In this document: positions 8,983 through 45,367 of the stretch, one piece after another
Numbering within the stretch: the stretch's first letter is position 1
Layout of the letters: each line of letters begins with the position of its first letter
Assembly: GCA_018302465.1 (NCBI GenBank)
Contig: JAGVZQ010000001.1
Coordinates: 2,235 to 66,234, forward strand
Origin: Candidatus Woesearchaeota archaeon
Lineage (GTDB): Archaea > Nanobdellota > Nanobdellia > SCGC-AAA011-G17 > GW2011-AR20
Direction of reading: 5' to 3'
Length of the DNA stretch: 64,000 nucleotides
Notes under the pieces: generated by a model
What the model saw: only the letters and a program-made list of their open reading frames with translations
What the model was told of the DNA's origin: nothing
The model's database searches: none
Program-made: the position numbers and the translations under genes

Positions 8983-9939
8983 TTATATACTTTTATGTTT
9001 TGAGTGCCAATCCCAAGCACTTTTGATTATGTCTCTTATGTTATATTTAGCTTCCCAGTTTAATTCAGTTTTAGCTTTTAATGGAAAAGCTACTAATTCT
9101 GCAGGATCTCCTGGTCTTCTCTCTTCTTCTATTACTTTAATTTCTCTGCCTGTTATTTCCTTGCAGAGATCAATCACTTCTCTGACTGATGTCCCTTTTC
9201 CAGTACCCAAGTTATAGACCCCTGATTTTCCTTCTTCTAAAGATTTTAACGCAAGAATATGTGCAGATGCTAAATCCAAAACATGTATATAATCTCTGAT
9301 GCAGGTTCCATCTTTGGTTGGATAGTCTGTTCCAAATATTTTAATTGAGTCTCTTTTTCCTAAAGCTGCTTCCAAAACTATTGGGATTAAATGGGTTTCA
9401 GGATTATGGATTTCACCAATTCCAAAAGCTGCACCTGCTGCATTAAAATACCTTAAGGCAATAAAGTTAATCTTAGATGATTCTAAAACCTGCTCGAATA
9501 ATTTTTTAGACAGACCATAGTAATTAACAGGATTTGTCGGATGTGATTCTTCTAAAGGAAGTTTTTCCGGAATCCCGTAAGTTGCACATGTGCTTGAAAA
9601 AACAATTTTGTTTACATTAAATTTCTTCATTGTTTTAAGCAGATTAATTCCATTAGCCAAGTTATTGTGAAAATATTTGACTGGATTTTCCATTGACTCG
9701 CCAACAAGAGCATAACCTGCAAAGTGAATTACTGCATCTATTTTGTTAGAGCTAAAAACTTCCTCCAAATCTTTTTTATTTTCAAGATTTCCCTGGAATA
9801 ATTTAGCCGTTTTAGGAAGAAACTCTTTATAGCCATTTTCTAAACTGTCAAAGACTACAACATTAAACCCTTGATTAATCAGTTCATGGACTGTATGACT
9901 GCCAATATAACCAGCCCCGCCTGTTACTAGAACATTCAT
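8983..9939 (-). CDS. galE: UDP-glucose 4-epimerase (GalE family, extended SDR)
   Basis: MNVLVTGGAGYIGSH (GxxGxxG), YGLSKKLFE (YxxxK), 318 aa, GalE-like throughout. The ATGA start overlaps the upstream GT9 stop. Confidence 0.85.
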   Translation of the reverse strand: MNVLVTGGAGYIGSHTVHELINQGFNVVVFDSLENGYKEFLPKTAKLFQGNLENKKDLEEVFSSNKIDAVIHFAGYALVGESMENPVKYFHNNLANGINLLKTMKKFNVNKIVFSSTCATYGIPEKLPLEESHPTNPVNYYGLSKKLFEQVLESSKINFIALRYFNAAGAAFGIGEIHNPETHLIPIVLEAALGKRDSIKIFGTDYPTKDGTCIRDYIHVLDLASAHILALKSLEEGKSGVYNLGTGKGTSVREVIDLCKEITGREIKVIEEERRPGDPAELVAFPLKAKTELNWEAKYNIRDIIKSAWDWHSKHKSI

Positions 9940-11021
9940 TTTAAACTCCTCACAGCATTTAAAACATCATTTATTTCAATTGCTTTCATGCACTCCATAA
10001 ATCTTTCTCCTTTCAAATAACAATTGGATTTCATGCAAGAAGTATGAACATTATTCTTGAAAACGACTCTGTAATTATTAGAATAAGGGTGCCATATTTC
10101 TGGTGTTCCTGCTCCGAATAAAGCAACTACTGGAATATTAAACCCTGCTGCAACATGCATTGCTGATGTATCTATGCTTATTACAAATTCTGCATTTTTA
10201 ATTATTATAAAAAATTCTTTCATTGAAGTTCCTGAAAGATTATGTAGCTTACTTTTACATAATTTTACAATCTTTTCATTACTTTCATAATCTTCTTTCA
10301 TTCCAGTTATTACTGCTTCTGTTTTATATTCATTGTTCAAGATATCAACAGTTTCTGCAAATCTTTCAGGAAGCCATTCCCTGTTCTGAGCATGCCTTGA
10401 TGTGTTATGGATTACAAAATATTTTTTTGGTGATTTCATTTTAATTTTTTTATCTACATACAGTTCCAGGAATTTCGCTTTTGAATAAACTCCAATCGTT
10501 TTTACAACATCTAAGTTGTCATCTATTTTGTGTTTTATTTTATATGTAGGAAAGGTCTTTCTGTGCAGGAATAAACCTCTGTTTTCCGAGAAACCAACTT
10601 TAGTGCAGCCGATTCTAAATGGGATTTTAGCCTTCATTAACATCTTACTTATTTGGAATGTTCCATTATGAAGAATCACAGCTAAATTATATTTATTTTT
10701 TAGGTTATTAGTCCATTTTTTAAAATCATAATCAAATGGAAGTATCTCATTTATGTTTGGATTACCATAAAGAACATCTTTCATTGATTCGGGGACAAGA
10801 ATATCAATCTCAGCATCTGGAAATTTTTCCTTTAATGCTCTTATTGTAGGTGTTGCTGCTATTATATCTCCTATAAATTTTAACTCAACAATTAAAATTC
10901 TTTTTGGAGTTTTAAATCTTTTAAACTTGAATGGAAACATATAGGTGTAATCCAGAAAGTAATCTATAAACCAGAGGGAATTCCTTAAAACATCCTTGAA
11001 AGGGGTTATTCTGTTTACCAT
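9936..11021 (-). CDS. Glycosyltransferase family 9 (heptosyltransferase-like)
   Basis: RILIVELKFIGDIIAATPTIRALKEKFPDAEIDILV (GT9 N-terminal block) and IDTSAMHVAAGFNIPVVALFG (GT9 C-terminal DSGxMHxAAAxG-like block). Confidence 0.7.
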   Translation of the reverse strand: MVNRITPFKDVLRNSLWFIDYFLDYTYMFPFKFKRFKTPKRILIVELKFIGDIIAATPTIRALKEKFPDAEIDILVPESMKDVLYGNPNINEILPFDYDFKKWTNNLKNKYNLAVILHNGTFQISKMLMKAKIPFRIGCTKVGFSENRGLFLHRKTFPTYKIKHKIDDNLDVVKTIGVYSKAKFLELYVDKKIKMKSPKKYFVIHNTSRHAQNREWLPERFAETVDILNNEYKTEAVITGMKEDYESNEKIVKLCKSKLHNLSGTSMKEFFIIIKNAEFVISIDTSAMHVAAGFNIPVVALFGAGTPEIWHPYSNNYRVVFKNNVHTSCMKSNCYLKGERFMECMKAIEINDVLNAVRSLK

Positions 11022-32338: not shown

Positions 32339-33268
32339 ATGATCCATATTATAATTGCTGCTTGTGGGGAGGTTAATTCTACTGAGAGAGCTATAAATGC
32401 ATTTTTGAAGCAGAATATCAAGGAAGAGTTTGAAATAATAGTTTCAGACCCATTTACAGAGACAAAATGGATGATTGAAGAGAAATTCCCGGATAATAAA
32501 AGAATAAGGTATTTTGAAGATCCTGGAAAGGGAAAGAGTAATGCTTTGAATTTAATTTTTAAAGAGATATGGTCTAATGATAAAGATAATATAATAATTT
32601 CAACTGATGCTGATGTTTATGTTTCTGAGAACTCTGTAAATGCTATTTTAAGTGAATTCAAAAAAGCACATATTGGTTGTGTTTCTGGAAGGCCTGTTTC
32701 TACAAATTACAGGAATAATATGTATGGATATTGGAGCCATTTTTTGTGTGATGTTGGGGCCCATGAGATTTCAAGGAAAAGGAGATATCATAAAGGACAG
32801 TTTTTAGAAACATCTGGTTACTTGTTTGCTTTTAGAAATGGAATAATTAAAGAGATTCCAACAGATGTTGCAGAGGATACAATAATTCCTTATAGGATAT
32901 ATAACCAAGGGTATATGATTGGCTATGCAGAAGATGCTAAAGTTTATGTTAAATGGCCCACTAATATGAAAGACTGGATGAAGCAGAAGAAGAGAGCTGC
33001 TGATGCACATACAAAATTAACAAAGTATGTTAAAGATTTTCCAAAAGTTAAATCCTTTATTGGAGAAATACTTGGAGGGTTAATAGGATTTGGAAGAATA
33101 TTTTCTTATCCTAAAAATTTTAAAGAGTTTTTATGGACTTTAAATTTGTTTCCTACAAGATTAATTATGTGGCTGTCTTTGTATTATGATTTACATTTTA
33201 AGAAAAGGGAATATAGTGATGGATGGAGAGAAAATTTAGAAGTTGAGTCTACTAGGACTTTGGATTAA
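32339..33268 (+). CDS. GT2 glycosyltransferase
   Basis: IIIAACGEVNSTERAINAF..., IISTDADVYV (DxD), GT-A fold pattern. Confidence 0.7.
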   Translation: MIHIIIAACGEVNSTERAINAFLKQNIKEEFEIIVSDPFTETKWMIEEKFPDNKRIRYFEDPGKGKSNALNLIFKEIWSNDKDNIIISTDADVYVSENSVNAILSEFKKAHIGCVSGRPVSTNYRNNMYGYWSHFLCDVGAHEISRKRRYHKGQFLETSGYLFAFRNGIIKEIPTDVAEDTIIPYRIYNQGYMIGYAEDAKVYVKWPTNMKDWMKQKKRAADAHTKLTKYVKDFPKVKSFIGEILGGLIGFGRIFSYPKNFKEFLWTLNLFPTRLIMWLSLYYDLHFKKREYSDGWRENLEVESTRTLD

Positions 33269-33675
33269 AATTCCCCATTTTTCAATTCTTTTTTTAGCTC
33301 TTTTAAGTTTTCAATTAATTTAACAGAAGGGTTAAAACACATGACGCAGATTCTGAATTTTTTAGTTAAAGTTTCTTTGTCTTCTACTATCCCAATTACT
33401 TTTTTATTTCTGGCATGAGCATAGCCTAGCTCCCAGGCAGTTCCAGAGCTTATTCCCTGCCAGTCTAATAAAGCAACCATGATATCACACCAATCAACCA
33501 TATCCCTGTCTTTTTTGAAGATTGGTAAAGGATCAATGCCTTCTTCATAAATACCAGCATCTCTATGTGGAAGGAAAGTTTCATGACCTAAATCTCTACA
33601 GAGTTTATCTATTTTTTCTACTTTCTTTCTGTCTTCCTTATCCCATAATTTGCCAGCTACATAGACTTTTGCCAT
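33265..33675 (-). CDS. Nucleoside 2-deoxyribosyltransferase-like family protein
   Basis: KVYVAG ... GTAWELGYAHA matches the PF05014 Rossmann-like signature. Confidence 0.6.
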   Translation of the reverse strand: MAKVYVAGKLWDKEDRKKVEKIDKLCRDLGHETFLPHRDAGIYEEGIDPLPIFKKDRDMVDWCDIMVALLDWQGISSGTAWELGYAHARNKKVIGIVEDKETLTKKFRICVMCFNPSVKLIENLKELKKELKNGEF

Positions 33676-33726: not shown

Positions 33727-34827
33727 ATGAAACATCAGTGGAACAGGGATTGTAAGGAGTTTAATGGAATATACTCATGTGAGGTAATGACTGCTGAAGA
33801 CTACAAGGATTGCTCTGAATGCAGCTTTTACGAGAAAATTGGAAAGAAAATATTGATTTTAAAGCTTGGAGCTATGGGTGATGTAGTCAGGACTACTTCA
33901 TTATTAACTGTCCTAAAGAAGAAATATGGAAGAGATTCACATATAACCTGGGTTGTTGAAGAAAACAGCAAGGAAATTTTATATAACAATTCAGATGTTG
34001 ATAGAATTCTTGGTTATAATCCTGAGACTGCTTTGCTGTTAAATCAAGAAAAATTTGATGTTTTATTAAGTTTGGAAATTTCCCCACCAATTACTTTAGT
34101 TGCTAATATGATAAAAGCTGAGGAAAAATATGGTTATTATTTCAATGAAGATGGGCATCCTTCTGCATTTAATGATTCTGCTGTTGAATATTTAGAAACT
34201 GCATTTTCAAATAAGCTGAATAAGGAATGCAGGAAAACATACCAAAAGATGATGTTTGATATTTCTAAATTAGAGTATAATAAAGAAGATTATATATTAA
34301 ACTTAGAAGGCTGGGAAAACGGCTATGGAAAGAAAATTGTTACTAATAGAACTAAGAAAGTTATCGGGATAAATGTTGGAAGCGCTGGAAGATGGCCTTC
34401 AAAGGCATGGCACCCTTCTAAAATAATTGAGTTGATCAAGAAATTAAATAATTACAATGTTATTCTACTTGGCGGGAAGAGAGAAACTGAACTGATAAAA
34501 GAAATAGAGGAAGGATTAGGAAACGTAAAAGTAATGAAGAACGATGTTAATAATTCTGTAAGAGAGTTTATTGGTGTTTTGAATAATTGTGATGTGGTTA
34601 TTACCGGAGATAGTTTAGCTTTGCATTTAGCCCTTGGACTAAAGAAGAATACTATTGGATTATTTTTTTGTACTCCCCCATGGCAGGTTGAAGATTACAA
34701 GTATTTAAAGAAGATAAATTCTCCTTTATTAGAAAATTATTTTATGGATGACAGATATATTGAAGAATTAGTTAAATCTATAGACTCAGAATGTGTGTTA
34801 GAAGCTGTAAAACAGCTTTCTGGTTAA
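33727..34827 (+). CDS. Glycosyltransferase family 9 (heptosyltransferase-like) with N-terminal Cys-cluster extension
   Basis: KKILILKLGAMGDVVRTTSLLTVLKKKYGRDSHITWVV and ITGDSLALHLALGLKKNTIGLFF (GT9 blocks). An N-terminal C-x10-C ... CSEC prefix precedes them. Confidence 0.7.
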   Translation: MKHQWNRDCKEFNGIYSCEVMTAEDYKDCSECSFYEKIGKKILILKLGAMGDVVRTTSLLTVLKKKYGRDSHITWVVEENSKEILYNNSDVDRILGYNPETALLLNQEKFDVLLSLEISPPITLVANMIKAEEKYGYYFNEDGHPSAFNDSAVEYLETAFSNKLNKECRKTYQKMMFDISKLEYNKEDYILNLEGWENGYGKKIVTNRTKKVIGINVGSAGRWPSKAWHPSKIIELIKKLNNYNVILLGGKRETELIKEIEEGLGNVKVMKNDVNNSVREFIGVLNNCDVVITGDSLALHLALGLKKNTIGLFFCTPPWQVEDYKYLKKINSPLLENYFMDDRYIEELVKSIDSECVLEAVKQLSG

Positions 34828-34858
34828 TTTTAAATAGATTTCCTATAGAGATATCTTT

Positions 34859-36178
34859 ATGAACTTCTCAGAGGTGTTGGAAGGGTTTACGGGAAAGAAG
34901 ATTTTGGTAGTTGGAGACTTAATGTTAGATAAGCATATTCATGGAAATGTTTCCAGAATATCTCCAGAAGCTCCTGTTCCTGTTTTAAAAGCTGAAAAAG
35001 AGACTTTTAATCCTGGCGGGGCTGCTAATGTAGCAAGCAATTTAGTGACATTGGGAGCTAAAGTGTACTTGTCTGGAGTAGTTGGAGATGATGATGCCCA
35101 GAAAATTTTGTTTAATGAATTTAGAAAACTAAACATTGACACCAGCTGTATAATAAAAACTTCAAAACCAACCATACAAAAAGTTAGGGGGATATCAAAA
35201 CAGCATATATTCAGGATTGACTATGAAGATTCTTCTAAAATTAATGAAAATGAAGAAAATCAGTTAATTAACTTAATAAAAGAAAAGATTTCAGATGTTG
35301 ATGCTGTGATATTAAGTGATTATGCTAAAGGTACATTGACTGAGAATCTTGTAAAAAACATAATTTCTTTGGCTAAAGAAAATAATAAATTAGTAACTGC
35401 AGACTGCAAACCGATAAATATTGAATTCTATAAAAATGTTAGTTTATTGAAACCAAATAAAAAAGAAGCAATAGAGATGACATTAAAAGATAATGTTGAG
35501 GAGGCAGGAAGGAAATTACTTGAAATGACTCAATCGAATATATTGATAACTAGAGGTGGTGAGGGAATGAGTTTGTTTTTTGACAATGAAATAGTTAATA
35601 TCCCTTCTAAAGCAAAGCAAGTATATGATGTTTCTGGCGCTGGGGATACGGTATTGGCTACATTAACTTTGGCGTTGGTAGCTGGTGCAAGCTTAAAAGA
35701 TGCGTCTGAATTAGCAAATAAAGCAGCTGCAATAGTAATTGAAAAACCAGGTGTTGTTCCAATTCATTTAGAGGATTTAAAGAAAGAGCATTCAAGCAAT
35801 ATTAAGGTTGTTGAAAAGGCATGGGGGGAAGAGGAATGGCTGGTTAATACTGAGAAATACTGTGGAAAAAGAATGCTTATAAGAAAAAATTATTATTGCT
35901 CTTATCATAAACATAAAATTAAAGAAGAAACATTTTATGTACTTAATGGAGAATTAGAAATTATAAAAGGAAAAGTTTACTATGTTGTTAAGAGTGGAGA
36001 AACTTTCCATGTTAAACCAGAGGAATATCACAGTTTTAGAGCTTTAGAAGATACTACATTCTTTGAGTTTTCAACGCATCATTCAGATGAAGATAATTAT
36101 AGGTTAACTCAAAGCGGAAATGGGGAGCATGAGCAATGGAAAAAGGAAATTGAGGGGGCTATTATAAAAAATGGATAA
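34859..36178 (+). CDS. Sugar kinase (RfaE/HldE domain-I-like, pfkB family) fused to a C-terminal cupin domain
   Basis: N-terminal [32 protein letters not shown] is the HldE kinase-domain start, and [10 protein letters not shown] is the pfkB anion-hole/ATP motif. The C-terminal ~110 aa has cupin motifs ([18 protein letters not shown]; [14 protein letters not shown]). Confidence 0.75.
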
Positions 36179-36185
36179 GAAACAA

Positions 36186-36344
36186 ATGAATAGGGTAGTG
36201 TTTCTTGATAGAGATGGCACAATAAATGTTGATGTCGAATATGTTCATAAGATAGAAGATTTAAGATTTGAAGAAGGAGCACTTGAAGGATTAAGACTAT
36301 TACAAAATCTTCATGGATATAAACTCATTATAATACGAGCATAG
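36186..36344 (+). pseudogene. N-terminal fragment of a GmhB-type D,D-heptose-1,7-bisphosphate phosphatase (HAD-IIIA), truncated after ~52 codons
   Basis: [52 protein letters not shown] matches the GmhB N-terminus (FLDRDGTIN...YVH). It stops where the TNQSG motif should follow, and no remainder lies downstream. Confidence 0.5.
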
Positions 36345-36520
36345 AATCATGCAGATATGCTTCTAAAATATTCTGGAGGCTGAGAAAAAAAGGCATAACA
36401 ATAAGCCGTTTTGATTGCCTTATCGCAGCAGTTTTCATTACGAATGGTGTTACTAGAATCCTTACAAGAAACAAAAAACATTTTGAAAACATAAAAGAAT
36501 TAAGCGTTATAAGCTATTAA
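36323..36520 (+). pseudogene. C-terminal fragment of a PIN-domain (VapC-like) protein, with no start codon
   Basis: Frame +2 reads ...FWRLRKKGITISRFDCLIAAVFITNGVTRILTRNKKHFENIKELSVISY*, which matches the VapC C-terminal consensus D-x-LIAA-x-A...G..L.T.N.K.F. An upstream in-frame stop lies at 36320-36322. Confidence 0.45.
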
Positions 36521-36559
36521 ATACCAAAGACTTTTAAAAATATAACATATAATGTTTCT

Positions 36560-38116
36560 ATGTCTTTTTTAGAAAAAATAGAAAAGTGGCTGGATAATAG
36601 GTATAATTTACTCTTAGTTATTATTTTATTATTTGCTTTGTTTTTAAGATTAAAATATTTTGATATTAACACTTGGTCTTTATGGTGGGATGAAGCTACT
36701 TACTTAGCAACAGGAAGATACTGGGCTTTTGGAGATACTTTATGGGCTGTTGAAGCTGCAAGACCTCCTTTATTCATGTTATTAATTGCATTATTTTATA
36801 AATTCGGGTTTAATGAATTATGGATTAGATTTTTTACTGTAGTTGTGCCTTCATTATTTATTGTATTTTTAACTTATTTACTTGGAAAAGAGTTGTATAA
36901 TGAAAAAGTTGGGCTAATTGCAGCATTATTAGCAAGTGTTTCATGGATGTTTTTATTTAATATAGCAAGAGTTCATTCTGATTTATTGGCTGTAGCTTTA
37001 GGTTTGGCTGCAATTTATTTCTTCTGGAAAGGTTATGTTATACCGGAAAAGAAAAATACTTTTTACCTGATCTTAACTGGAGCATTTCTAAGCTTGGGTT
37101 ATCTAACAAGGTTGTCTAACCTTCTAGTTATTGGAATTATTGGTTTTTATTTAATAATAACTGAGCAGCATAAATTTTTGAAAAGAAAAGAATTATGGTA
37201 TGCGGTTTTATTTTTGGTTTTAGTTTCAATTCCTTATATGATCTGGGGGCATTTTCATTATGGCAGTTATATTCCTTGGTTAGGACAGTATGGGGCTGGA
37301 GCTGAAGATGCTGCTGCACAACCATTGGCTTGGGATGTATTTTCTGTGGTTAAAATATATTTAGTTCCTTCAATGTGGTCATGGTTAGGGAAGTTAGCGT
37401 CTATAAAGCAGGATTTTATATTATATATATTGTTCTTTGTTGGATTATTAATTACTTTAAAATTTGTTTTAGGTATAGACTTAGTTTTCAAAAATAAAAA
37501 TAAAGAAATGAATGCTGATTTAATGACCTTTCTTATGATTCTTATTACCATTATGTTTTTTGTGGTTGTGCAAAGACAGATAGGAGATCCAAGATGGCAG
37601 ATGTTTGCTGCACCTGCTTTGTTCATTGTAATTGGAAGAGGCATTATGTGGGGGTATGATTATTTCAAGAAGTATTCAAAGAATGGAGCTATTGCAGTAA
37701 TAACTGTTCTTTTATTAATTGGAATATTTTCACAAATTACTCAGGCAGATTCTTTATTAAATCAGAGAAAGAATGATCAAGCAGGGATTAAGAGCGCTGC
37801 AGAATTTATTAAGCAGAATAGTGAAGTAGGGGAATGGGTACTGAGTAATAATATTCATGCTGAGATGACTTATTGGGCGGATAGACCAACGAGAGGATTT
37901 GGAAAAGATGAAGAAGATACATTAAAAGTAATAGAAGAGTTAAAACCTAAGTTTTTAGTCATTACCAGTTATTTTAATTCTCTGGACTGGACTTATGAAC
38001 TTCCATCAAGACATATGGATTTGTTTACACCGGTTGCTGCATTTGATATTTATGGAAAACCGTTAGTTAGCACTGAACAAAATCCTACAATTGTTGTGTA
38101 TAAGGTTAATATTTAA
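36560..38116 (+). CDS. GT-C fold glycosyltransferase (PMT_2 / ArnT-like, GT39/GT83-like), paralog A
   Basis: 12-13 TM helices. The first loop WWDEATYLATGRYWAFGD carries the family DE motif. A C-terminal soluble domain follows. Confidence 0.7.
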   Translation: MSFLEKIEKWLDNRYNLLLVIILLFALFLRLKYFDINTWSLWWDEATYLATGRYWAFGDTLWAVEAARPPLFMLLIALFYKFGFNELWIRFFTVVVPSLFIVFLTYLLGKELYNEKVGLIAALLASVSWMFLFNIARVHSDLLAVALGLAAIYFFWKGYVIPEKKNTFYLILTGAFLSLGYLTRLSNLLVIGIIGFYLIITEQHKFLKRKELWYAVLFLVLVSIPYMIWGHFHYGSYIPWLGQYGAGAEDAAAQPLAWDVFSVVKIYLVPSMWSWLGKLASIKQDFILYILFFVGLLITLKFVLGIDLVFKNKNKEMNADLMTFLMILITIMFFVVVQRQIGDPRWQMFAAPALFIVIGRGIMWGYDYFKKYSKNGAIAVITVLLLIGIFSQITQADSLLNQRKNDQAGIKSAAEFIKQNSEVGEWVLSNNIHAEMTYWADRPTRGFGKDEEDTLKVIEELKPKFLVITSYFNSLDWTYELPSRHMDLFTPVAAFDIYGKPLVSTEQNPTIVVYKVNI

Positions 38117-38140
38117 GTATTTATTGCATTTATTTGAATT

Positions 38141-39616
38141 ATGGAACAAGAATCAGAAAAAGAGCAAAATTTTCTTTATGAAAACTCCAATTTCATACTT
38201 GCTTTTATCTTGATATTTGCACTTGTCTTAAGATTGAAATATCTTACTATAAACTCTGCGCTATGGTTTGATGAAGCTGAGTATCTTGCTATGGCTAAAA
38301 ATTGGGCGTTTGGCATACCATTTAATATTCCTGAGGTTAGACCTGTTTTACTTCCATTTTTTGCTTTTATTTTCTACAAGATAGGAGTTAGCCCAGAAAT
38401 GCCATTAAGAATCATAGAGTTAATATTTTCTATAGGGGGCGTATATTTTGCCTATTTGTTGGGAAAAGAGATGTATGAGAAAAGAGTTGGTCTCCTTTTT
38501 GCATTTTTTATGTCTATATTTTATTTAAACCTCCTTTTTACTACCAGAATTTTAACTGATATGCCCACTACGGCGTTATGGACATTGGCAGCTTATTTAT
38601 TCTGGAAATGGAGCAAGAATAAATCCTCCATCTATCTCAATTTAACGGGATTAATTATTGGCTTGGGGATATTAATGAGGTTTCCTTTTGGACTGATACT
38701 AATTGCCTTTCTGATTTATTTGTTGACGGTGTATGGGCTCAAGTTTTTGAAAATTAAAGAAATCTGGACTTTCCTTCTAGTGATATTACTTACTTTAGTT
38801 CCTTACTTTTTATGGTTTTATCTGGCTTTTAATAAATTAGCTATACTCTCTACAGGAGGGTATTATAAATATACTTTTTTATTGTGGGAGTACATTAAGG
38901 TCTATTATACCTATTTCTACAGCCCTGCTTATGTTTTGTTTTTATTGTTTTTAGCAGGCCTCGGGATCTTTCTGTTTAAATTGGTTGTAGGATTTGATTT
39001 AATTAGAAAAAATACAAGTTTGCAAAAAAACTTATTCCTTCTTTTGCTTCTTGTCGTGCCTTTCCTTTATTTTGGAATGGTTAATGAATTAGATCCGAGA
39101 TACTTGTTTTATACTTTTCCGTCTGCTTTTTTGATTATTTCTGTATTGGTGTTATTCCTATACGATTATATAAAAAAACATAACAAAAATATAGCTGTGG
39201 TTGCCATATTACTCCTTTTGTTATTCTCTGCAATATACCAGATTAGGTTCGCTGAGCAAGGAATAAGCACTAAGAAAGATACTTATATCCAGTACAAAAT
39301 TGCAGGCCTTTGGATAAAGGAGAATTCAATTGAGAATGATAAAATTATGTCAGACGGTGCACCTATGCTAACTTATTATTCTGAAAGAGAGGTTATTGGT
39401 TGGGGGGAAGAAGATAATTTTGAAGAAACATTATCTGAGAAGAATCCTAAATATATTATTTTGAGTGTTTTAGAGAAATCTCCTGTATGGGCTTATGACC
39501 TTCCTGTAAATGATTCTATAAGATTTAAATCTGCGGTTGGATTTGATACAAATGGGGAAGAAGTAGAAGGAAAAGACCAAATTCCTGTAATTATTATTTA
39601 TGAAGTTAAATATTAA
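38141..39616 (+). CDS. GT-C fold glycosyltransferase (PMT_2 / ArnT-like), paralog B, tandem to the previous gene
   Basis: LWFDEAEYLAMAKNWAFG (DE motif) and the same architecture. It is clearly homologous to 36560-38116. Confidence 0.7.
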   Translation: MEQESEKEQNFLYENSNFILAFILIFALVLRLKYLTINSALWFDEAEYLAMAKNWAFGIPFNIPEVRPVLLPFFAFIFYKIGVSPEMPLRIIELIFSIGGVYFAYLLGKEMYEKRVGLLFAFFMSIFYLNLLFTTRILTDMPTTALWTLAAYLFWKWSKNKSSIYLNLTGLIIGLGILMRFPFGLILIAFLIYLLTVYGLKFLKIKEIWTFLLVILLTLVPYFLWFYLAFNKLAILSTGGYYKYTFLLWEYIKVYYTYFYSPAYVLFLLFLAGLGIFLFKLVVGFDLIRKNTSLQKNLFLLLLLVVPFLYFGMVNELDPRYLFYTFPSAFLIISVLVLFLYDYIKKHNKNIAVVAILLLLLFSAIYQIRFAEQGISTKKDTYIQYKIAGLWIKENSIENDKIMSDGAPMLTYYSEREVIGWGEEDNFEETLSEKNPKYIILSVLEKSPVWAYDLPVNDSIRFKSAVGFDTNGEEVEGKDQIPVIIIYEVKY

Positions 39617-39643: not shown

Positions 39644-41167
39644 TTAAGCTAAATCATCCTCATCTTTAATAAATACAGAGCTAACTTTTTGATTTACAAG
39701 GTTTTTAACAATTTTAGCACTATACATGATTTCTTCAAATGATTTATTCTTAGGAAGAACTGTTTTTATTATAAATCTGGGACTGGTTAATGATTTCATT
39801 TTATGCTTCATAAACTCTGCATAAGCCTGTTGTTGCAATCCTTGCAATTCGTCTCCTGAAAAATAATGAGTTCTGTATTGAGAGGCAGCTAAACTGCTTG
39901 ATTCTTTTATTCCTTCATCTAACAACCCCTCTTCCTGGAATTTTTTATACAAAGGAGTTCCTGCATAAGGCTGTGCAATATAAAATTGCGCAAAATCTAA
40001 ACCAGAATCTTTAGCAAATTCTATTGTATCCCTGATATGCTTCATTGATTCATGCGGAAAGCCAAGTAAAAATGTTGAGCATGTCCAGATTCCAAGTCTA
40101 TGGCAGATTCCAATTATTTTTCTTGCATATTTCAGATTTATTGGCTTATCAATATATTTCAAAGTTTCTTCATTTCCAGATTCAATTCCAAAAATAGCTA
40201 GATAATAACCAGCTTTCTTCATTAAAGTAAGAATTTCTTCATTTAAAGTCCAGATAGCAATCCCATTTGGAGTATACCATTTAATGTCTAATTTTCTTTT
40301 TATAATTTCTTTACAAATTTCTTTAATTCTTTGACCTGAAACTGCTAAGTTATCATCCTGGATCCTGAATTGCCTTACATTATAAGTTTTAACTACATGC
40401 TCTATTTCATCAACAACATTTGTTGGTGATCTAGAACGCCAAACTCTTCCCCATACTGTGAAAATTGAGCAGAAAGAACAATGTTGCGGACAGCCTCTGC
40501 TTGTTATTATATCTGTTGATCTCCCGCGCATAGCCCATAAAGCACTGTCTGGATGGGTGATATAACGCTCCATTGGCAATAGATGGCGAGCGGGAAATGG
40601 TAATGAATCTAAGTCTTTGATGAAAGGTCTAGGTTTATTTTTAATTGGAGAAGTGTTTCCTCTTTCAATTGTGCCATCTATTCCTGTTAATTTTTCTTTA
40701 TTCTCATATTTAGAAATGATTTCATTAAATGTTTCCTCTCCTTCTCCGAAAGCTATTAAATCAACATTTTTATTTTTAAAAACTGAATTAGGCTCTGCTG
40801 AAGAATGTGCGCCACCAAATACAATTAAAGAGTTAGGATTTATTTTTTTTGCTAAATTTGCTATTTCAAAAGCATCCTGTTCGTAAGCAGTATAGCCACA
40901 GTTAATGCCAATGACATCTGCGTTTATTTCCCTCATTCTTTTTTCAATTTCATCATAGCTTAGACCAACATGATATTTATTTGGACCTAATTTTTTGACT
41001 TTTTCATAATAAGCTAAAGAATCTATAATCCTGACAAAGAAACCATTTTTTTCTAAATAAGCTGCAATATAAGCAGGACCTAGAGGGAATTTTACATTTC
41101 TTATACCTGCCCTTAAATCTCCTCTTAGAGGGGGAATAACGAACAGCACTCTTGTCTTTTTATCCAT
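39644..41167 (-). CDS. Cobalamin-binding radical SAM enzyme, class B (paralog 4)
   Basis: TRVLFVIPPL...GPAYIAAYLEKNGFFVRIIDS...VFGGAHSSAEP is a B12-binding domain. TSRGCPQHCSFC is the radical SAM motif. Length is 507 aa. Confidence 0.85.
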   Translation of the reverse strand: MDKKTRVLFVIPPLRGDLRAGIRNVKFPLGPAYIAAYLEKNGFFVRIIDSLAYYEKVKKLGPNKYHVGLSYDEIEKRMREINADVIGINCGYTAYEQDAFEIANLAKKINPNSLIVFGGAHSSAEPNSVFKNKNVDLIAFGEGEETFNEIISKYENKEKLTGIDGTIERGNTSPIKNKPRPFIKDLDSLPFPARHLLPMERYITHPDSALWAMRGRSTDIITSRGCPQHCSFCSIFTVWGRVWRSRSPTNVVDEIEHVVKTYNVRQFRIQDDNLAVSGQRIKEICKEIIKRKLDIKWYTPNGIAIWTLNEEILTLMKKAGYYLAIFGIESGNEETLKYIDKPINLKYARKIIGICHRLGIWTCSTFLLGFPHESMKHIRDTIEFAKDSGLDFAQFYIAQPYAGTPLYKKFQEEGLLDEGIKESSSLAASQYRTHYFSGDELQGLQQQAYAEFMKHKMKSLTSPRFIIKTVLPKNKSFEEIMYSAKIVKNLVNQKVSSVFIKDEDDLA

Positions 41168-42354: not shown

Positions 42355-42443
42355 TGGGCTATTCGACCATTCTCGTTAGAGTTGTCCAAGTTGTTCCTGT
42401 TGGAGTTGAGGCCAAGATTCCTGTTAAGGTAAACCCCCGAGAT
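42355..42443 (-). repeat. Decayed, out-of-frame duplicate of the 3'-terminal coding segment of gene 42550-43299
   Basis: The minus-strand translation ISGVYLNRNLGLNSNRNNLDNSNENGRI aligns with the parent C-terminus ISGVYLDWDLGLYSYGYDLGNSLEDGRV. About 75% nt identity to 42553-42650. No start codon; in-frame TGA upstream. Confidence 0.45.
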
Positions 42444-42549
42444 TTGTAGCCTGTTAATTAAAAGTAAATCACCACTGCTTCATTTTTCATTTCTTACTAA
42501 ATGTTGCAGTTGAATTTTATGGCTTTATTTTTAAAGCACTATCAAGTGG

Positions 42550-43299
42550 CTACGCCACAACAACTACCCGACCATCCTCGAGAGAGTTGCCCAAGTCGTA
42601 CCCGTAGGAGTAGAGGCCAAGATCCCAGTCAAGGTAAACCCCCGAGATTCCTAAGTTATCTAAAGATGGTTCTTGTTGTCTTGTTGTGCATAACCTTCTT
42701 GATCCTTCTTCTGATTTACAGGGCAATCCGTCTTCTAATGAAACATTTTCATTTGAGAAATTTCCATCTTGTCCTGCTAGGATTGATGCATGCCTTACTG
42801 TTGTATCTTCAGTTACTTCAAAATTAAGTTTGTATTGCCCTTCATCAAAATTTTTAAGCCCATATCCTACAAGCATGCATGGAACTCTGTCTAAAGTTCT
42901 TTCATCTGAAGGAAGCTGATTAAATAAGTCTACAGCCATTTCGTGGTTTTTTCCAGAGAAATCGAGGGCTATTCCTAAGTCAACATAGAATCTATCTCTT
43001 ATTCCTAATATGTCCCCATCATTTAAAGTTCTTTGAATTTCCTCAGGTCTTATTATTCTTTTTTCAGGTGCTACTAAAGACTGAGCAACTGGCAAAATTA
43101 GGGGGCTTGAGCCTGTAACTGTTGGAATATCATTTATAACTCTTAATTCAAGCCTTTTTAGACATTTATTTCCGTTATATCGATCATCAATTACTTGATT
43201 AAAATCTCTTAAAAATTGTTGTGCACCCTGCCCATGAAGCAAGTAAAGAATAATAGGTGGTTGTTTTATTCCAGGTTTAAATGCATATTCTGGTGCCAT
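42550..43299 (-). CDS. Hypothetical protein (249 aa), compositionally atypical, possible alpha/beta-hydrolase-like N-terminus
   Basis: PPIILYLLHGQGAQQF resembles the esterase LHGxG motif. The C-terminal Tyr/Asp/Gly-rich tail is YLDWDLGLYSYGYDLGNS. GC content is markedly above the window average. Confidence 0.4.
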   Translation of the reverse strand: MAPEYAFKPGIKQPPIILYLLHGQGAQQFLRDFNQVIDDRYNGNKCLKRLELRVINDIPTVTGSSPLILPVAQSLVAPEKRIIRPEEIQRTLNDGDILGIRDRFYVDLGIALDFSGKNHEMAVDLFNQLPSDERTLDRVPCMLVGYGLKNFDEGQYKLNFEVTEDTTVRHASILAGQDGNFSNENVSLEDGLPCKSEEGSRRLCTTRQQEPSLDNLGISGVYLDWDLGLYSYGYDLGNSLEDGRVVVVA

Positions 43300-43382: not shown

Positions 43383-44513
43383 TCAATTCTTTCTATGGGT
43401 TATTCTCTGGACTACTGGGATTTTATTGACGAATTTGTACTTGTCAAATATCTCAGATTCATTAACTCCACAGGATGAACATATGCCTACTCTTTTCTTG
43501 ATTAATTGCCTTCTGAAAGCTCTTGCTTTTTCATTATTCCATATTTTCATGAACGGCTCTTCAAATACATTGCCAAAAACTATCTCATTTTCAGCATAAA
43601 AATCACAAGGACAGACATTGCCATCCCATGTGATGTAGGGAGTATACCATGGCAGAAAACAAGGAGCTGTTTTGTTATGGCCTTTATTTACACTTTCTCC
43701 CTCTATTTTATCAAATTTATATAAGAAATTGATTAAGTTTGCAATTCGCACGTCTGTTTTCACATTCCTTAGAACTTCTTTTAATTCTTCTCTTACTTTT
43801 ATTATATCTTCTGCTTTGCTTTTATTTAAACCTAAGTCTGTATTTTCATTCATTCCTAATCTAATAACGAAAGTACCGTTTATTGAATCAACTCCAATTT
43901 TATCTGCCCATTTTATGTATTCTGGCAATTGCATTAAGTTTTCCTGCTGGACAACCATGAAAGTATGAATGTTTGTTACAGTATTCCCAACTTCTTTTTT
44001 TAATTTAACAAAGTTTTCTGTGTTTTCTATTACTTTTTCAAAATTAGCACCAACTCTTATTTTTTCATAGGTGTCTTTTTTCATGCCGTCAATTGAAATT
44101 GATAAAATATTTGGAGAAGATTCAAGCATTTTAAGGCCATTATTTCTATTTAGTAATGTAGCATTAGTATCTAACTTTACAAATGTATTTTTTGATCTTG
44201 CATGCGCAATTATTTTATAAATATCTTTATTCAAGAAAGGCTCTCCAATTCCTGTTAGATTTAAGTAACAAGGATAGATCTGGTCAAAAATATGCCTGTA
44301 ATTTTCATAAGAGATTGAACCAATAGGCCTTTTCAAACCAACACCATGGGGGCACATGTTGCATTTTAAGTTGCAAACAGTTGTATTTTCCAGTTTTAAC
44401 TTGAAAGGTGTTGGGGCTTTTGGAGTAGAGCGCATAGCATACCATGCATTTTCCAATACTTTCCTTGGATACCTCCAAGAGATACTATGTCTTAGAATGT
44501 GTGTGTATAACAT
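43383..44513 (-). CDS. Radical SAM enzyme with C-terminal SPASM domain
   Basis: CNLKCNMC (Cx3Cx2C) near the N-terminus. C-terminal Cys-rich auxiliary-cluster region (CFLPWYTPYITWDGNVCPCDF ... GICSSCGV). Length is 376 aa. Confidence 0.8.
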   Translation of the reverse strand: MLYTHILRHSISWRYPRKVLENAWYAMRSTPKAPTPFKLKLENTTVCNLKCNMCPHGVGLKRPIGSISYENYRHIFDQIYPCYLNLTGIGEPFLNKDIYKIIAHARSKNTFVKLDTNATLLNRNNGLKMLESSPNILSISIDGMKKDTYEKIRVGANFEKVIENTENFVKLKKEVGNTVTNIHTFMVVQQENLMQLPEYIKWADKIGVDSINGTFVIRLGMNENTDLGLNKSKAEDIIKVREELKEVLRNVKTDVRIANLINFLYKFDKIEGESVNKGHNKTAPCFLPWYTPYITWDGNVCPCDFYAENEIVFGNVFEEPFMKIWNNEKARAFRRQLIKKRVGICSSCGVNESEIFDKYKFVNKIPVVQRITHRKN

Positions 44514-45367
44514 TATTTATTTAATCCCTCTTTAAAGCTTATAGGACTATAATTTAAATCTCTTTCTGCGGAAGCTATAGTTCCTTTGTACTTTGATTCT
44601 AAGCTCAATACAAATGATTTCTTCAAAGGAAAACTTGGCCCTAGAATACTTCCTACTGAACTTATTACTAGACAAATTGGAATAGGTATATGAATTTTTC
44701 TCTTTTGGATATTATATTTTTCACTTATAACATTTATGAATTCATTAAATGATATTTCATTTCTCCCTAGGATATCATAAGTTTTTTTTATTGATTTTCT
44801 TGAATTAATACATGAAATAATGGCTTTTACAACATCATCCACATGAACAGGATTTAGAGTATATTCACCGTTTCCAACAATTGGGATGAACTTAAAGGAG
44901 TTAATGAAACTGATCATCTTTTTCATGCTGTTGCTGTTTTTTCCATAAATAAAAGAAGGCCTTAATATTGTGTAATCTAAACCTGAGTTTTTTATTAAAT
45001 CCTCAGCTTCTTTTTTGCTTTTTCCGTAATCATCTAGATAATCTTTTGTAGAAGCCATTGAACTGACAAAGATTATTCTTTTTACTTTATTTTTTTTACA
45101 TGAATCAATTAAATTTTTGGTTCCCTGCACATTTACTTTGTAATAATCTTTTTTGTTTTTTGAGTCTATGACTGCTGCTAAATGTATGAGAACTTTTGTT
45201 TTCTTTAAGAGTTTATTTACTGAAACTGTATCATTAATATCTCCAACAACCGGATCTATTTTACTATTGTCTATATATTTCCTGACTAAACACTTAACCT
45301 TTTTATCTTTCAATTTAGGTATTAAATTACTCCCAAGAAATCCTGTTGCTCCTGTTATTGCAATCAT
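44513..45367 (-). CDS. NAD(P)-dependent epimerase/dehydratase family (SDR) protein
   Basis: MIAITGATGFLGSNL (GxxGxxG), YGKSKKEAE (YxxxK). Length is 284 aa. Confidence 0.75.
   Translation of the reverse strand: MIAITGATGFLGSNLIPKLKDKKVKCLVRKYIDNSKIDPVVGDINDTVSVNKLLKKTKVLIHLAAVIDSKNKKDYYKVNVQGTKNLIDSCKKNKVKRIIFVSSMASTKDYLDDYGKSKKEAEDLIKNSGLDYTILRPSFIYGKNSNSMKKMISFINSFKFIPIVGNGEYTLNPVHVDDVVKAIISCINSRKSIKKTYDILGRNEISFNEFINVISEKYNIQKRKIHIPIPICLVISSVGSILGPSFPLKKSFVLSLESKYKGTIASAERDLNYSPISFKEGLNK

What the first reader, a model, noticed from the sequence alone, without database searches (positions are those of the whole stretch)
33727..36344. Heptose-pathway-like module in an archaeon: HldE-type sugar kinase fused to a cupin, flanked by a GT9 heptosyltransferase-like gene and a broken GmhB fragment
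Gene 34859-36178 begins like the kinase domain of bacterial HldE/RfaE ([29 protein letters not shown]) and carries the pfkB ATP motif [10 protein letters not shown]. In HldE the next domain is the ADP-transferase; here it is a ~110-aa cupin with His-rich metal motifs ([30 protein letters not shown]). Cupin-type phosphosugar isomerases exist in archaea, for example the Pyrococcus cupin-type phosphoglucose isomerase. The fusion may therefore unite a GmhA-like isomerase with the kinase step, replacing the usual SIS isomerase with a non-orthologous fold. Just upstream is a GT9 gene (33727-34827), and a second GT9 lies at 9936-11021. Just downstream is the N-terminal 52 codons of a GmhB phosphatase ([11 protein letters not shown]...YVH), cut off by a stop. 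Heptose incorporation into archaeal glycans is rarely documented.
Basis: partly seen in the sequence, partly recalled or inferred. Interest (0 to 1): 0.65.

Follow-up and report, generated by a model that had tools for sequence, protein, structure and literature searches.

The report
Heptose kinase fused to cupin isomerase
In this small DPANN archaeon the kinase that makes activated heptose sugar is fused to a metal-binding cupin domain that, judging from many related genomes, stands in for the usual first enzyme of the pathway (GmhA), although in this particular genome the next enzyme (GmhB) is a wrecked pseudogene.

Summary
33727-34827 is a GT9 glycosyltransferase. 34859-36178 is a 439-aa HldA/HldE-I-type heptose-7-phosphate kinase (TIGR02198, 350 bits, cutoff 345) joined to a 110-aa cupin. 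36171-36344 is the 5' stump of gmhB. The window is archaeal (Topo VI, MCM, aIF genes); relatives are Woesearchaeota/Nanoarchaeota.

The cupin belongs to a large family, mostly stand-alone 110-130-aa proteins. It keeps a His-x-His-x4-Glu...His metal site. It resembles PMI and D-lyxose isomerase cupins weakly.

In other genomes it is fused, in at least eight arrangements, to the kinase, GmhB, HldC and GT9. In operons it sits where SIS-type GmhA sits in sister genomes: L100 has cupin-HldD-kinase-GmhB-HldC, L101 has GmhA-GSU2086-kinase-GmhB-HldC. Cupin and GmhA never co-occur in the 181 loci examined.

Best reading (about 0.65): a cupin-type sedoheptulose-7-phosphate isomerase, a non-orthologous replacement of GmhA. 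No enzyme has been assayed, and I could not test whether GmhA is absent genome-wide.

In this genome the interior of gmhB was replaced by a PIN/VapC remnant, and no HldC or HldD lies within the 64 kb. The local pathway is therefore incomplete or partly decayed.

I found no report of this in the searchable literature. I rate it a new variant of a known pathway.

The parts
33727..34827 (+). GT9 (heptosyltransferase-family) glycosyltransferase, 366 aa, with a Cys-rich ~40-aa N-terminal extension
   Evidence: PF01075 scores 52.1 bits against a cutoff of 22. The best NCBIfam hits are LPS heptosyltransferases I/II/III, all below their equivalog cutoffs. A GT9 directly upstream of the fusion is conserved in relatives L001, L004, L008 and L102. 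dN/dS against L008 is 0.066.
34859..35788 (+). Kinase half of the fusion gene (residues 1-310): HldA/HldE-I-type D-glycero-beta-D-manno-heptose-7-phosphate kinase
   Evidence: TIGR02198 scores 350 bits against a cutoff of 345 over residues 8-310; PfkB E 6e-43. The GAGD and N-x-x-E motifs are invariant in alignment A2. dN/dS is 0.057. AF2 pLDDT is about 90 or above.
35789..36178 (+). Linker, cupin half (residues about 314-420) and C-terminal helix (424-438) of the fusion gene; predicted metal-dependent sugar-phosphate isomerase
36171..36344 (+). 5' remnant of gmhB (57-codon ORF; GmhB homology at 36186-36335)
   Evidence: TIGR00213 profile positions 1-48 of 176 are matched. The stump is 68% identical to residues 1-49 of the L008 GmhB. 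DNA homology to L008/L102 ends at about 36332.
36353..36520 (+). 3' remnant of a PIN/VapC toxin gene (55 codons plus stop) that replaces the interior of gmhB
   Evidence: tblastn gives 53% identity to residues 76-128 of the L008 PIN protein and 42% to the L004 PIN. The remnant is in a different frame from the gmhB stump.
36520..36537 (+). Last codons and stop of the original gmhB, followed by the conserved spacer before the PMT_2 gene
   Evidence: DNA alignment with L008 and L102 resumes here.
36560..39616 (+). Two PMT_2 (GT-C, dolichyl-phosphate-sugar-type) glycosyltransferase genes, syntenic with the closest relatives
   Evidence: PF13231 hits at E 1.6e-16 and 7e-17. The same gene order is seen in L008-L010.
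9936..11021 (-). Second GT9 glycosyltransferase, next to a GalE gene (8983-9939)
   Evidence: NCBIfam heptosyltransferase III/II at E 1e-34, below cutoff. GalE: TIGR01179, 421 bits against a cutoff of 262.

Best explanation
Gene 34859-36178 encodes a bifunctional enzyme for the first two steps of nucleotide-activated heptose synthesis.

Proposed mechanism:
- The C-terminal cupin binds a divalent metal through His350, His352, Glu357 and His391.
- It isomerises sedoheptulose 7-phosphate to D-glycero-D-manno-heptose 7-phosphate. This is the same aldose-ketose chemistry as fructose-6-P to mannose-6-P.
- The N-terminal HldA-type kinase then phosphorylates C1.
- The cupin is thus a non-orthologous, different-fold replacement of the SIS-fold isomerase GmhA.

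In intact relatives, GmhB, HldC and an HldD-like epimerase (sometimes an HldC-GmhB fusion) complete the route. The adjacent GT9 transfers the heptose to a glycan, probably a protein- or lipid-linked one.

What is shown: the domain identities, the conserved metal site, the fusions and the operon replacement. What is inferred: the substrate and the reaction of the cupin.

In this genome gmhB has been destroyed by a PIN-gene remnant, and no HldC or HldD lies in the 64 kb. The local pathway is therefore incomplete, unless those genes lie elsewhere or another phosphatase substitutes.
For: 1. The kinase is HldE-I type at the equivalog cutoff.

2. In-situ displacement in two Woesearchaeota contigs:
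- L100: NTP_transferase(-) | cupin-HldD-like SDR-kinase-GmhB-HldC.
- L101: NTP_transferase(-) | GmhA-GSU2086 protein-kinase-GmhB-HldC.
- Flanking genes are 54-72% identical.
- The L101 and L071 SIS proteins best match GmhA (TIGR00441): L071 222 bits, above the 209 cutoff; L101 184 bits, below it.
- L056 has cupin-kinase-GmhB-HldC-GT9; L071 has GT9-GmhA-kinase.

3. Fusions among the best 149 family representatives (also L106):
- 13 PfkB-cupin and 10 cupin-PfkB.
- Single cases of cupin-PfkB-HldC, PfkB-HldC-cupin, GmhB-cupin-HldC, HldC-cupin, cupin-GmhB and GT9-cupin-PfkB.
- None is fused to SIS.

4. Cupin and SIS co-occur in 0 of 181 loci. SIS lies next to the kinase in 8 cupin-less loci.

5. 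Of 19 metagenomic cupin loci with at least 3 kb on both sides, 10 have a PfkB kinase and 10 an HldC-like transferase within 5 kb.

6. The metal-ligand spacing H-x-H-x4-E...H equals that of TK0503, a cupin annotated as PMI. The cupin has weak hits to the PMI C-terminal, GMP_PMI and D-lyxose isomerase families. Its highest structural-neighbour identities are to D-lyxose isomerases at 26-28%.

7. The cupin is strongly conserved: 27 invariant positions between fused and free forms.
Against: - No member of this cupin family has been assayed.
- About half of the well-flanked family members show no heptose genes nearby, so the family may have more than one substrate.
- In operons the free cupin most often sits directly next to the SDR epimerase. 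That is also what an epimerase/reductase pair would look like.
- Genome-wide absence of GmhA in cupin-bearing genomes could not be tested.
- In bacteria gmhA is usually unlinked: it was adjacent in only 6 of 75 loci. Absence from a neighbourhood is therefore only moderate evidence.
- In this window the downstream steps are missing or broken.
Confidence: 0.65

Rival explanations
1. The cupin is a metal-dependent epimerase acting on an NDP-(keto)heptose together with the neighbouring SDR. This would resemble the cupin domain of CapF or WbuC, or the cupin epimerases of Campylobacter heptose modification. The true isomerase (GmhA) would then be encoded elsewhere in these genomes.
For: - There is a weak WbuC-family hit (23.9 bits, cutoff 42).
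- The free cupin is immediately followed by the HldD-like SDR in L013, L019, L100, L110, L117 and L147.
- Two cupin-SDR fusions exist, for example P0302.
Against: - Fusions to the kinase (23 clusters) far outnumber fusions to an SDR (2).
- The cupin occurs without an HldD-like SDR in the window, L008/L102, L056 and L017. It occurs with a GSU2086-family protein instead of the SDR in L106.
- It never co-occurs with GmhA, and it occupies GmhA's operon slot.
- No RmlC-type family hit was found.
- The SDR best matches HldD, which needs no partner.
Confidence: 0.15
2. The cupin is a phosphomannose (hexose-phosphate) isomerase. The module would then make an activated hexose, for example through mannose-1,6-bisphosphate, rather than a heptose. 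Alternatively the cupin simply supplies mannose-6-P for other glycan steps.
For: - Family-level hits are to PMI-type cupins: PF01050 and TIGR01479.
- The ligand spacing is that of TK0503, annotated as PMI.
- One family member is fused to an NTP_transferase, as in ManC (P0294).
- Many family members lie in polysaccharide clusters without heptose genes.
Against: - The kinase, phosphatase, transferase and epimerase partners all best match the heptose-specific models TIGR02198, PRK08942/TIGR00213, TIGR02199 and TIGR02197.
- GT9 genes are linked to the module.
- The gene that the cupin replaces is GmhA, not a PMI.
Confidence: 0.1
3. The cupin is a non-catalytic sugar- or nucleotide-binding regulatory domain of the kinase. 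A further possibility is that the whole module in this genome is a decaying relic with no current function.
For: - Cupins serve as ligand sensors in AraC-type regulators.
- gmhB next door is a pseudogene, and HldC and HldD are absent from the 64 kb.
Against: - All four metal ligands and some 20 further residues are invariant across fused and free forms.
- The fusion gene and the GT9 are intact, with dN/dS of about 0.06.
- Free-standing copies sit in operons as separate genes.
Confidence: 0.05

Closest known systems
GmhA (SIS-fold D-sedoheptulose-7-phosphate isomerase, TIGR00441)
   Same: It holds the same predicted step, the first of NDP-heptose synthesis, and the same operon position directly upstream of the heptose kinase genes (L101 and L071 versus L100 and L056). 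It is also found fused to kinase/transferase enzymes in some organisms, according to the commentary on Tang et al. 2024.
   Different: The fold is unrelated: SIS Rossmann-like versus cupin beta-barrel. The cupin has a His/His/Glu/His metal site. There is no sequence similarity. This is functional analogy, not family membership.
HldE / HldA (bifunctional heptose-7-P kinase / heptose-1-P adenylyltransferase, and the stand-alone kinase)
   Same: The N-terminal 310 residues meet the rfaE_dom_I equivalog cutoff, and the pfkB motifs are conserved.
   Different: The C-terminal partner is a cupin rather than the cytidylyltransferase-like domain II. In relatives, domain II is a separate gene or is fused to GmhB. 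It is absent from this window.
Small archaeal cupin annotated as phosphomannose isomerase (TK0503, PDB 7ZVY) and the type II PMI C-terminal cupin (PF01050)
   Different: Only 22% identity. The window's domain scores below the PF01050 cutoff. The predicted substrate is a C7 rather than a C6 ketose phosphate. The family has its own invariant residues: W322, C335, E403-x-S-T, H408, D412, Y414 and R415.
D-lyxose/D-mannose isomerase (PF07385; PDB 7NZO, 3KMH)
   Same: It has the highest sequence identity among structural neighbours (26-28%) and shares the H-x-H-x-x-K-x-E motif. Several homologues carry weak PF07385 hits.
   Different: D-lyxose isomerases are 180-230 aa and act on unphosphorylated sugars. 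The window's domain gives no PF07385 hit at E 0.01.
CapF C-terminal cupin / WbuC family (sugar-nucleotide keto-epimerase cupins)
   Different: 18% identity, and the WbuC model scores below its cutoff. Those cupins partner an SDR, whereas here the dominant fusion partner is the kinase.

Membership tests
HldA / HldE domain I (heptose-7-phosphate kinase) | Score at or above the curated equivalog cutoff of TIGR02198, with full-length coverage | tested here: met
   350 bits against a cutoff of 345; residues 8-310 match profile positions 3-313 of 315. Ribokinase scores 85 bits.
HldA / HldE domain I (heptose-7-phosphate kinase) | pfkB catalytic motifs: GAGD anion hole and base, and the N-x-x-E Mg site | tested here: met
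   G260-A-G-D263 and N200/E203 are invariant in alignments A2 and A6.
HldA / HldE domain I (heptose-7-phosphate kinase) | ATP-dependent C1 phosphorylation of D-glycero-beta-D-manno-heptose 7-phosphate | not testable with these tools
   This needs an enzyme assay.
HldE (bifunctional) | C-terminal cytidylyltransferase-like domain II (TIGR02199 / PF01467) | tested here: not met
   The fusion protein gives no PF01467 hit. tblastn of the window with an HldC found nothing significant.
Cupin superfamily (Cupin_2) | The two cupin motifs with His/His/Glu/His ligands, and a double-stranded beta-helix fold | tested here: met
Type II PMI C-terminal cupin (PF01050) | Score at or above the Pfam gathering cutoff | tested here: not met
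   The window domain scores 21.2 bits against a cutoff of 23.6. Some family members pass: P0251 30.9, P0275 28.6, P0248 27.6.
Cupin-type phosphoglucose isomerase (PF06560) | Any match to the family model | tested here: not met
D-lyxose isomerase (PF07385) | Match to the family model and a length of about 180-230 aa | tested here: not met
   The window domain gives no hit at E 0.01. Homologues give only weak or faint hits. The domain is about 110 aa.
GmhA (SIS-type sedoheptulose-7-P isomerase) | SIS fold and a TIGR00441 match | tested here: not met
   The cupin fold is unrelated. There is no SIS gene in the window. The claim is functional analogy only.
GmhA-equivalent function (S7P isomerase activity) | Interconversion of sedoheptulose-7-P and D-glycero-D-manno-heptose-7-P; absence of any other isomerase in the genome | not testable with these tools
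   Only neighbourhoods of up to 20 kb could be read. Supporting evidence: operon-slot replacement and no co-occurrence with SIS in 181 loci.
GT9 heptosyltransferase | PF01075 at or above cutoff | tested here: met
   52.1 bits against a cutoff of 22.
GT9 heptosyltransferase | Equivalog-level match to LPS heptosyltransferase I, II or III (defined acceptor) | tested here: not met
   72.5, 44.9 and 49.4 bits against cutoffs of 185, 135 and 170. The acceptor is unknown, and archaea have no lipid A.
GmhB (heptose-1,7-bisphosphate 7-phosphatase) | Full-length HAD-IIIA domain with all four HAD motifs | tested here: not met
   Only profile positions 1-48 of 176 remain, carrying the DxD motif. The interior was replaced by a PIN remnant.
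RmlC-like sugar-nucleotide 3,5-epimerase cupins | Match to a dTDP-sugar epimerase family, with no metal site | tested here: not met
   No such Pfam or NCBIfam hit was found. A complete metal site is conserved.

The most novel reading that the evidence does not exclude
This cupin family would be a previously unrecognised, widespread class of sedoheptulose-7-phosphate isomerase that has displaced GmhA in many DPANN archaea and in some marine and freshwater microbes. In the library of cluster representatives at 50% identity, 196 match at E<=1e-30 and 2847 at E<=1e-10. If so, surveys that look for GmhA undercount organisms able to make NDP-heptose, which is also an innate-immune agonist. DPANN archaea would then build the four-step pathway from two bifunctional proteins, kinase-cupin and HldC-GmhB, to heptosylate their surface glycans.
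Probability: 0.6. Interest if true: 0.7.

Novelty: new variant of a known kind. Interest (0 to 1): 0.6.

Why it matters
NDP-heptose synthesis is a well-studied pathway. It builds LPS cores, S-layer and adhesin glycans and some antibiotics, and it produces ADP-, CDP- and UDP-heptose, which ALPK1 senses. Its first step has been ascribed to a single enzyme family, GmhA.

A cupin that does the same job would be a clean case of non-orthologous displacement. It would extend the list of heptose producers in archaea and uncultured aquatic microbes. It would also explain apparent GmhA gaps.

The test is simple: S7P plus ATP giving heptose-1,7-bisphosphate with one purified protein, or complementation of an E. 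coli gmhA mutant. The result would also point to heptose-containing glycans in DPANN archaea, whose surface chemistry is essentially unknown.

Tried and rejected
- tRNA and Rfam scans of the window gave nothing relevant. There are no tRNAs and only an RT-16 RNA.
- The PDB sequence search ranked Bacillus quercetinase YxaG first, but the match covers only the 46-residue motif core. I did not take it as a functional lead.
- I looked in the window for HldC, GmhA, HldD or a second GmhB by tblastn and found none. It did detect SIS genes in other loci.
- The three SDR genes of the window are GalE or generic SDRs, not HldD.
- Literature searches for a cupin-type sedoheptulose-7-P isomerase, or for heptose in Woesearchaeota, found nothing pertinent.
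- The primary paper of Tang et al. 2024 is not held in the library; only a commentary could be read.
- The genome scan seeded with the kinase returned mostly bacteria, 75 of 80 loci, so the archaeal sample is small.
I repeated it without them.
- dS between the window and its closest relative is saturated, so the dN/dS values are rough. The cupin half gave no estimate.
- Coordinates of the AF2 models were not available to scripts, so I could not measure active-site geometry or the domain interface. The full-length model gave only pLDDT 90.6 and pTM 0.71.
Full report
**1. What is in the sequence**

The region holds three co-directional ORFs.
- 33727-34827 (366 aa) is a GT9 glycosyltransferase: PF01075, 52 bits against a cutoff of 22. 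Its best NCBIfam hits are LPS heptosyltransferases, all below their equivalog cutoffs.
- 34859-36178 (439 aa) has a PfkB kinase domain at residues 14-300 (E 6e-43) and a Cupin_2 domain at 347-399 (33 bits, cutoff 27.2). There is also a sub-threshold hit to the C-terminal cupin of type II phosphomannose isomerase.
- The kinase half reaches the curated equivalog cutoff for HldE domain I (TIGR02198, 350 against 345 bits). Ribokinase and phosphofructokinase models score 85-94 bits.
- 36171-36344 overlaps the stop of the fusion gene by 8 nt. It matches only positions 1-48 of 176 of the GmhB profile.

The window is archaeal. It encodes Topo VI A, an intein-containing Topo VI B, an intein-containing MCM with an archaeal winged helix, aIF1A, aIF2beta and NMD3. 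The closest homologues come from Woesearchaeota and Nanoarchaeota MAGs, many of them from groundwater.

Positions 6-51 kb form one large glycan-synthesis island. It contains:
- glycosyltransferases: five GT4, at least seven GT2, two GT9 and two PMT_2;
- six B12-binding radical-SAM genes and one SPASM radical-SAM gene;
- two flippases and an EpsG-like protein;
- a carbamoyltransferase and several methyltransferases;
- UDP-GlcNAc 2-epimerase, GalE and a WecA/AglH-like initiating transferase.

**2. The fusion is a conserved family, and its neighbours are the rest of the heptose pathway**

About 40 full-length kinase-cupin proteins at 42-84% identity exist in DPANN metagenomes. In relatives the gene order is conserved: GT4, QueC, a small IF5A-like gene, GT2, a nucleoside-deoxyribosyltransferase-like gene, GT9, then the fusion. 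What follows the fusion varies.
- In L001-L006 it is a 349-aa HldC-GmhB fusion (TIGR02199 166 bits; PRK08942 178.7 bits against a cutoff of 178). Next comes a convergent SDR whose best match is ADP-heptose 6-epimerase (TIGR02197, 238 bits, cutoff 275).
- In L105 it is separate GmhB, HldC and HldD genes.
- In the closest relatives (L008-L010 and L102, 84-85% identity) it is an intact 187-aa GmhB followed by the same two PMT_2 genes as in the window.

Kinase, phosphatase, nucleotidyltransferase, epimerase and GT9 are all present in these clusters. The one step without a recognisable gene is the isomerase. No SIS or GmhA gene occurs in any of these neighbourhoods.

**3. The cupin**

The cupin part (alignments A1, A3, A4) belongs to a large family. 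In a library of 1.84 billion cluster representatives at 50% identity, 7362 match at E<=1e-3, 2847 at E<=1e-10 and 196 at E<=1e-30. Most members are free-standing proteins of 110-130 aa, 40-50% identical to the window's domain.

Twenty-seven positions are invariant between fused and free forms.
- They include the canonical ligands H43, H45, E50 and H84 in domain numbering (H350, H352, E357, H391 in the protein).
- They also include K48 within an H-x-H-x-x-K-x-E motif.
- A C-terminal block E96-F-S-T-x-H-x3-D-x-Y-R is invariant as well.

The ligand spacing is the same as in TK0503, the small Thermococcus cupin annotated as phosphomannose isomerase: His44, His46, Glu51, His85 (PMC9369236).

- The highest identities are to D-lyxose/mannose isomerases (28% and 26%), L-ribose isomerase (24%) and the TK0503 structure (22%).

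Profile-to-PDB sequence search gives a similar picture. A short core match to quercetinase ranks first. KdgF, D-lyxose isomerases, TK0503-type proteins and L-ribose isomerase follow. Weak family hits are to PF01050, TIGR01479 (GMP_PMI), PF07385 and WbuC.

On its own this says only [quoted passage not shown].

**4. Comparative evidence that it stands in for GmhA**

(a) Operon-slot replacement. The gene orders are:
- L100 (Woesearchaeota, 322-kb contig): NTP_transferase(-) | cupin-HldD-like SDR-kinase-GmhB-HldC.
- L101 (Woesearchaeota, 228-kb contig): NTP_transferase(-) | SIS-GSU2086-family protein-kinase-GmhB-HldC.
- The shared genes are orthologous: NTP_transferase 72%, kinase 61%, GmhB 54% and HldC 55% identity.
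- The SIS protein best matches GmhA (TIGR00441): 184 bits in L101, below the 209 cutoff, and 222 bits in L071, above it.
- L056 (Nanoarchaeota) has cupin-kinase-GmhB-HldC-GT9 with no SDR. L071 (Woesearchaeota) has GT9-GmhA-kinase.

(b) Fusions. Domain mapping of the best 149 representatives gave the following (with Pfam confirmation):
- 96 free cupins;
- 13 PfkB-cupin and 10 cupin-PfkB proteins, that is, fusion in both orders;
- single cases of cupin-PfkB-HldC (606 aa), PfkB-HldC-cupin (587 aa), GmhB-cupin-HldC (472 aa, also seen in L106), HldC-cupin, cupin-GmhB and GT9-cupin-PfkB (809 aa);
- a few fusions to an SDR, NUDIX or NTP_transferase;
- no fusion to SIS.

The cupin-PfkB-HldC protein is the cupin counterpart of the isomerase/kinase/transferase proteins mentioned for the GmhA world.

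(c) Exclusivity. Across 181 fetched loci, none contains both this cupin and a SIS or GmhA gene. Eight cupin-less loci have GmhA next to the kinase: two archaeal and six of 75 bacterial.

(d) Linkage. Among 19 metagenomic cupin loci with at least 3 kb on both sides, 10 have a PfkB kinase and 10 an HldC-like transferase within 5 kb, and 9 have both. A recurrent marine and freshwater cluster has the order CTP_transf_like, PfkB, small ORF, cupin, SDR. Its kinase and transferase best match rfaE domains I and II.

(e) Independence from the SDR. The cupin occurs with HldD (L100), with a GSU2086-family protein (L106) and with neither (L056, L008, the window). It is therefore not tied to the SDR.

**5. 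Most likely mechanism**

The cupin is a metal-dependent sedoheptulose-7-phosphate isomerase. The chemistry is equivalent to that of PMI, carried out on a C7 ketose phosphate. Its product is handed to the fused HldA-type kinase, and GmhB, HldC and HldD complete ADP- or NDP-heptose. The linked GT9 then transfers the heptose. In L013 and L101 the cluster lies beside AglB/STT3, which hints at N-glycan use.

What is shown:
- the domain identities;
- the conserved metal site;
- the fusions;
- the slot replacement and the exclusivity with GmhA.

What is inferred: the substrate and the reaction. I put this reading at about 0.65.

A hexose-phosphate PMI role (about 0.1) is disfavoured because all partner enzymes best match heptose-specific models and because the displaced gene is GmhA. 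A regulatory or relic role (about 0.05) is disfavoured by the invariant catalytic-type residues and by dN/dS of about 0.06 for the kinase half and the GT9.

**6. The state of the module in this genome**

DNA alignment with L008 and L102 shows that homology to gmhB runs to about 36332. It is then lost, and it resumes for the last codons and stop of gmhB (about 36520-36537) and for the spacer before the PMT_2 gene.

The missing interior, about 390 nt, is replaced by 168 nt that encode the C-terminal 55 residues and stop of a PIN/VapC protein. This remnant is 53% identical to the L008 PIN and lies in another frame.

gmhB is therefore a true pseudogene. It was probably made by insertion of a vapBC cassette followed by a deletion. 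A separately deposited ENA contig (L007) carries the same 57-codon stump, although I could not establish whether it comes from a different assembly from the window.

No HldC, HldD, GmhA or second GmhB lies in the 64 kb. Whether the organism still makes activated heptose depends on genes outside the window. From my own knowledge, E. coli gmhB mutants are leaky, so another phosphatase might substitute. This was not tested here.

**7. Comparison with what is known, and novelty**

Functional NDP-heptose enzymes in archaea have already been reported (Tang et al., Science 2024, as summarised in PMC11461863). Archaeal heptose synthesis as such is therefore not new.

As that commentary describes the survey, the isomerase was identified by homology search, which I take to mean GmhA homologues; the commentary does not name the enzyme, and the primary paper was not available. 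I found no paper linking a cupin to sedoheptulose-7-P isomerisation. Databases label these proteins only as "cupin domain-containing protein" or as the kinase.

The finding is best classed as a new variant of a known pathway: a predicted non-orthologous isomerase in a new set of domain fusions. It is not a member of the GmhA, PMI type II, D-lyxose isomerase or cupin-PGI families by their own thresholds.

**8. Verdict**

Interest is 0.6. The prediction is specific, cheap to test and relevant to a well-studied pathway. The score is tempered by the lack of enzymatic proof and by the partly decayed state of the module in this genome.

Noticed in passing
window 36353-36520 (+): A 55-codon C-terminal remnant of a PIN/VapC toxin gene sits inside the former gmhB gene, with gmhB remnants on both sides. 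No VapB and no 5' part of VapC remain. Relatives carry intact vapBC pairs at other positions of the same island (L004 17028-17668; L008 656-1304).
   Followed up: partly
window 42441-42595 (-), overlapping ORF 42550-43299 (-): A full-length match to the Rfam family RT-16 RNA (74.4 bits, gathering score 50) lies in the glycan island. It partly overlaps the 5' end of a 249-aa ORF that has no Pfam hit. Whether that ORF is a divergent reverse transcriptase was not examined.
   Followed up: no
window 52458-57194 (-) and 60475-63966 (-): Topoisomerase VI subunit B (1578 aa) and MCM (1163 aa) each carry an intein with a LAGLIDADG homing-endonuclease domain.
   Followed up: no
window 6042-7589, 12263-13702, 16416-17915, 39644-41167, 45364-46779, and 43383-44513: Six B12-binding radical-SAM genes and one SPASM radical-SAM gene are interspersed with glycosyltransferases in one 45-kb glycan island. 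This is an unusually high density and suggests extensive C-methylation or other radical tailoring of the glycan.
   Followed up: no
L101 7100-7996; L106 2971-3942; L163 2801-3607: A GSU2086-family protein (NF052581, 420 bits) has a Rossmann-type domain that gives only faint Pfam similarity (to deoxyhypusine synthase in L101 and to the ArgZ C-terminal domain in the L106 homologue). It occupies the operon position that the HldD-like SDR epimerase holds in sister heptose operons. It could be a second non-orthologous replacement in the same pathway.
   Followed up: partly
L001 8046-8480 and 9549-9959; proteins P0296 and P0302: NUDIX hydrolase genes sit inside the heptose cluster of some relatives. 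NUDIX domains are also fused to this cupin (NUDIX-cupin, and cupin-RmlD-like SDR-NUDIX). This hints at turnover or proofreading of NDP-heptose.
   Followed up: no
window 33265-33675 (-): A nucleoside 2-deoxyribosyltransferase-like gene (PF05014) lies divergently upstream of the GT9 and fusion genes in every close relative examined (L001, L004, L008). Its role in a glycan cluster is unexplained.
   Followed up: no
window 33727-33850 (+): The GT9 next to the fusion has an N-terminal extension of about 40 residues with four cysteines (C9, C18, C29-x-x-C32). The second GT9 at 9936-11021 lacks this extension. It may be a zinc-binding module.
   Followed up: partly
L158 5316-11154 (similar in L149 and about 20 other marine and freshwater loci): A recurrent cluster has the order carbamoyltransferase, tryptophan-halogenase-like flavoprotein, HldC-like transferase (135 aa), short PfkB kinase (261 aa), 110-aa ORF, cupin, SDR. 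The same cupin family thus travels with heptose-type kinase and transferase genes outside DPANN.
   Followed up: partly
window 23865-25901 (-): A 678-aa ORF in the middle of the glycan island has no Pfam match at E 1e-4.
   Followed up: no
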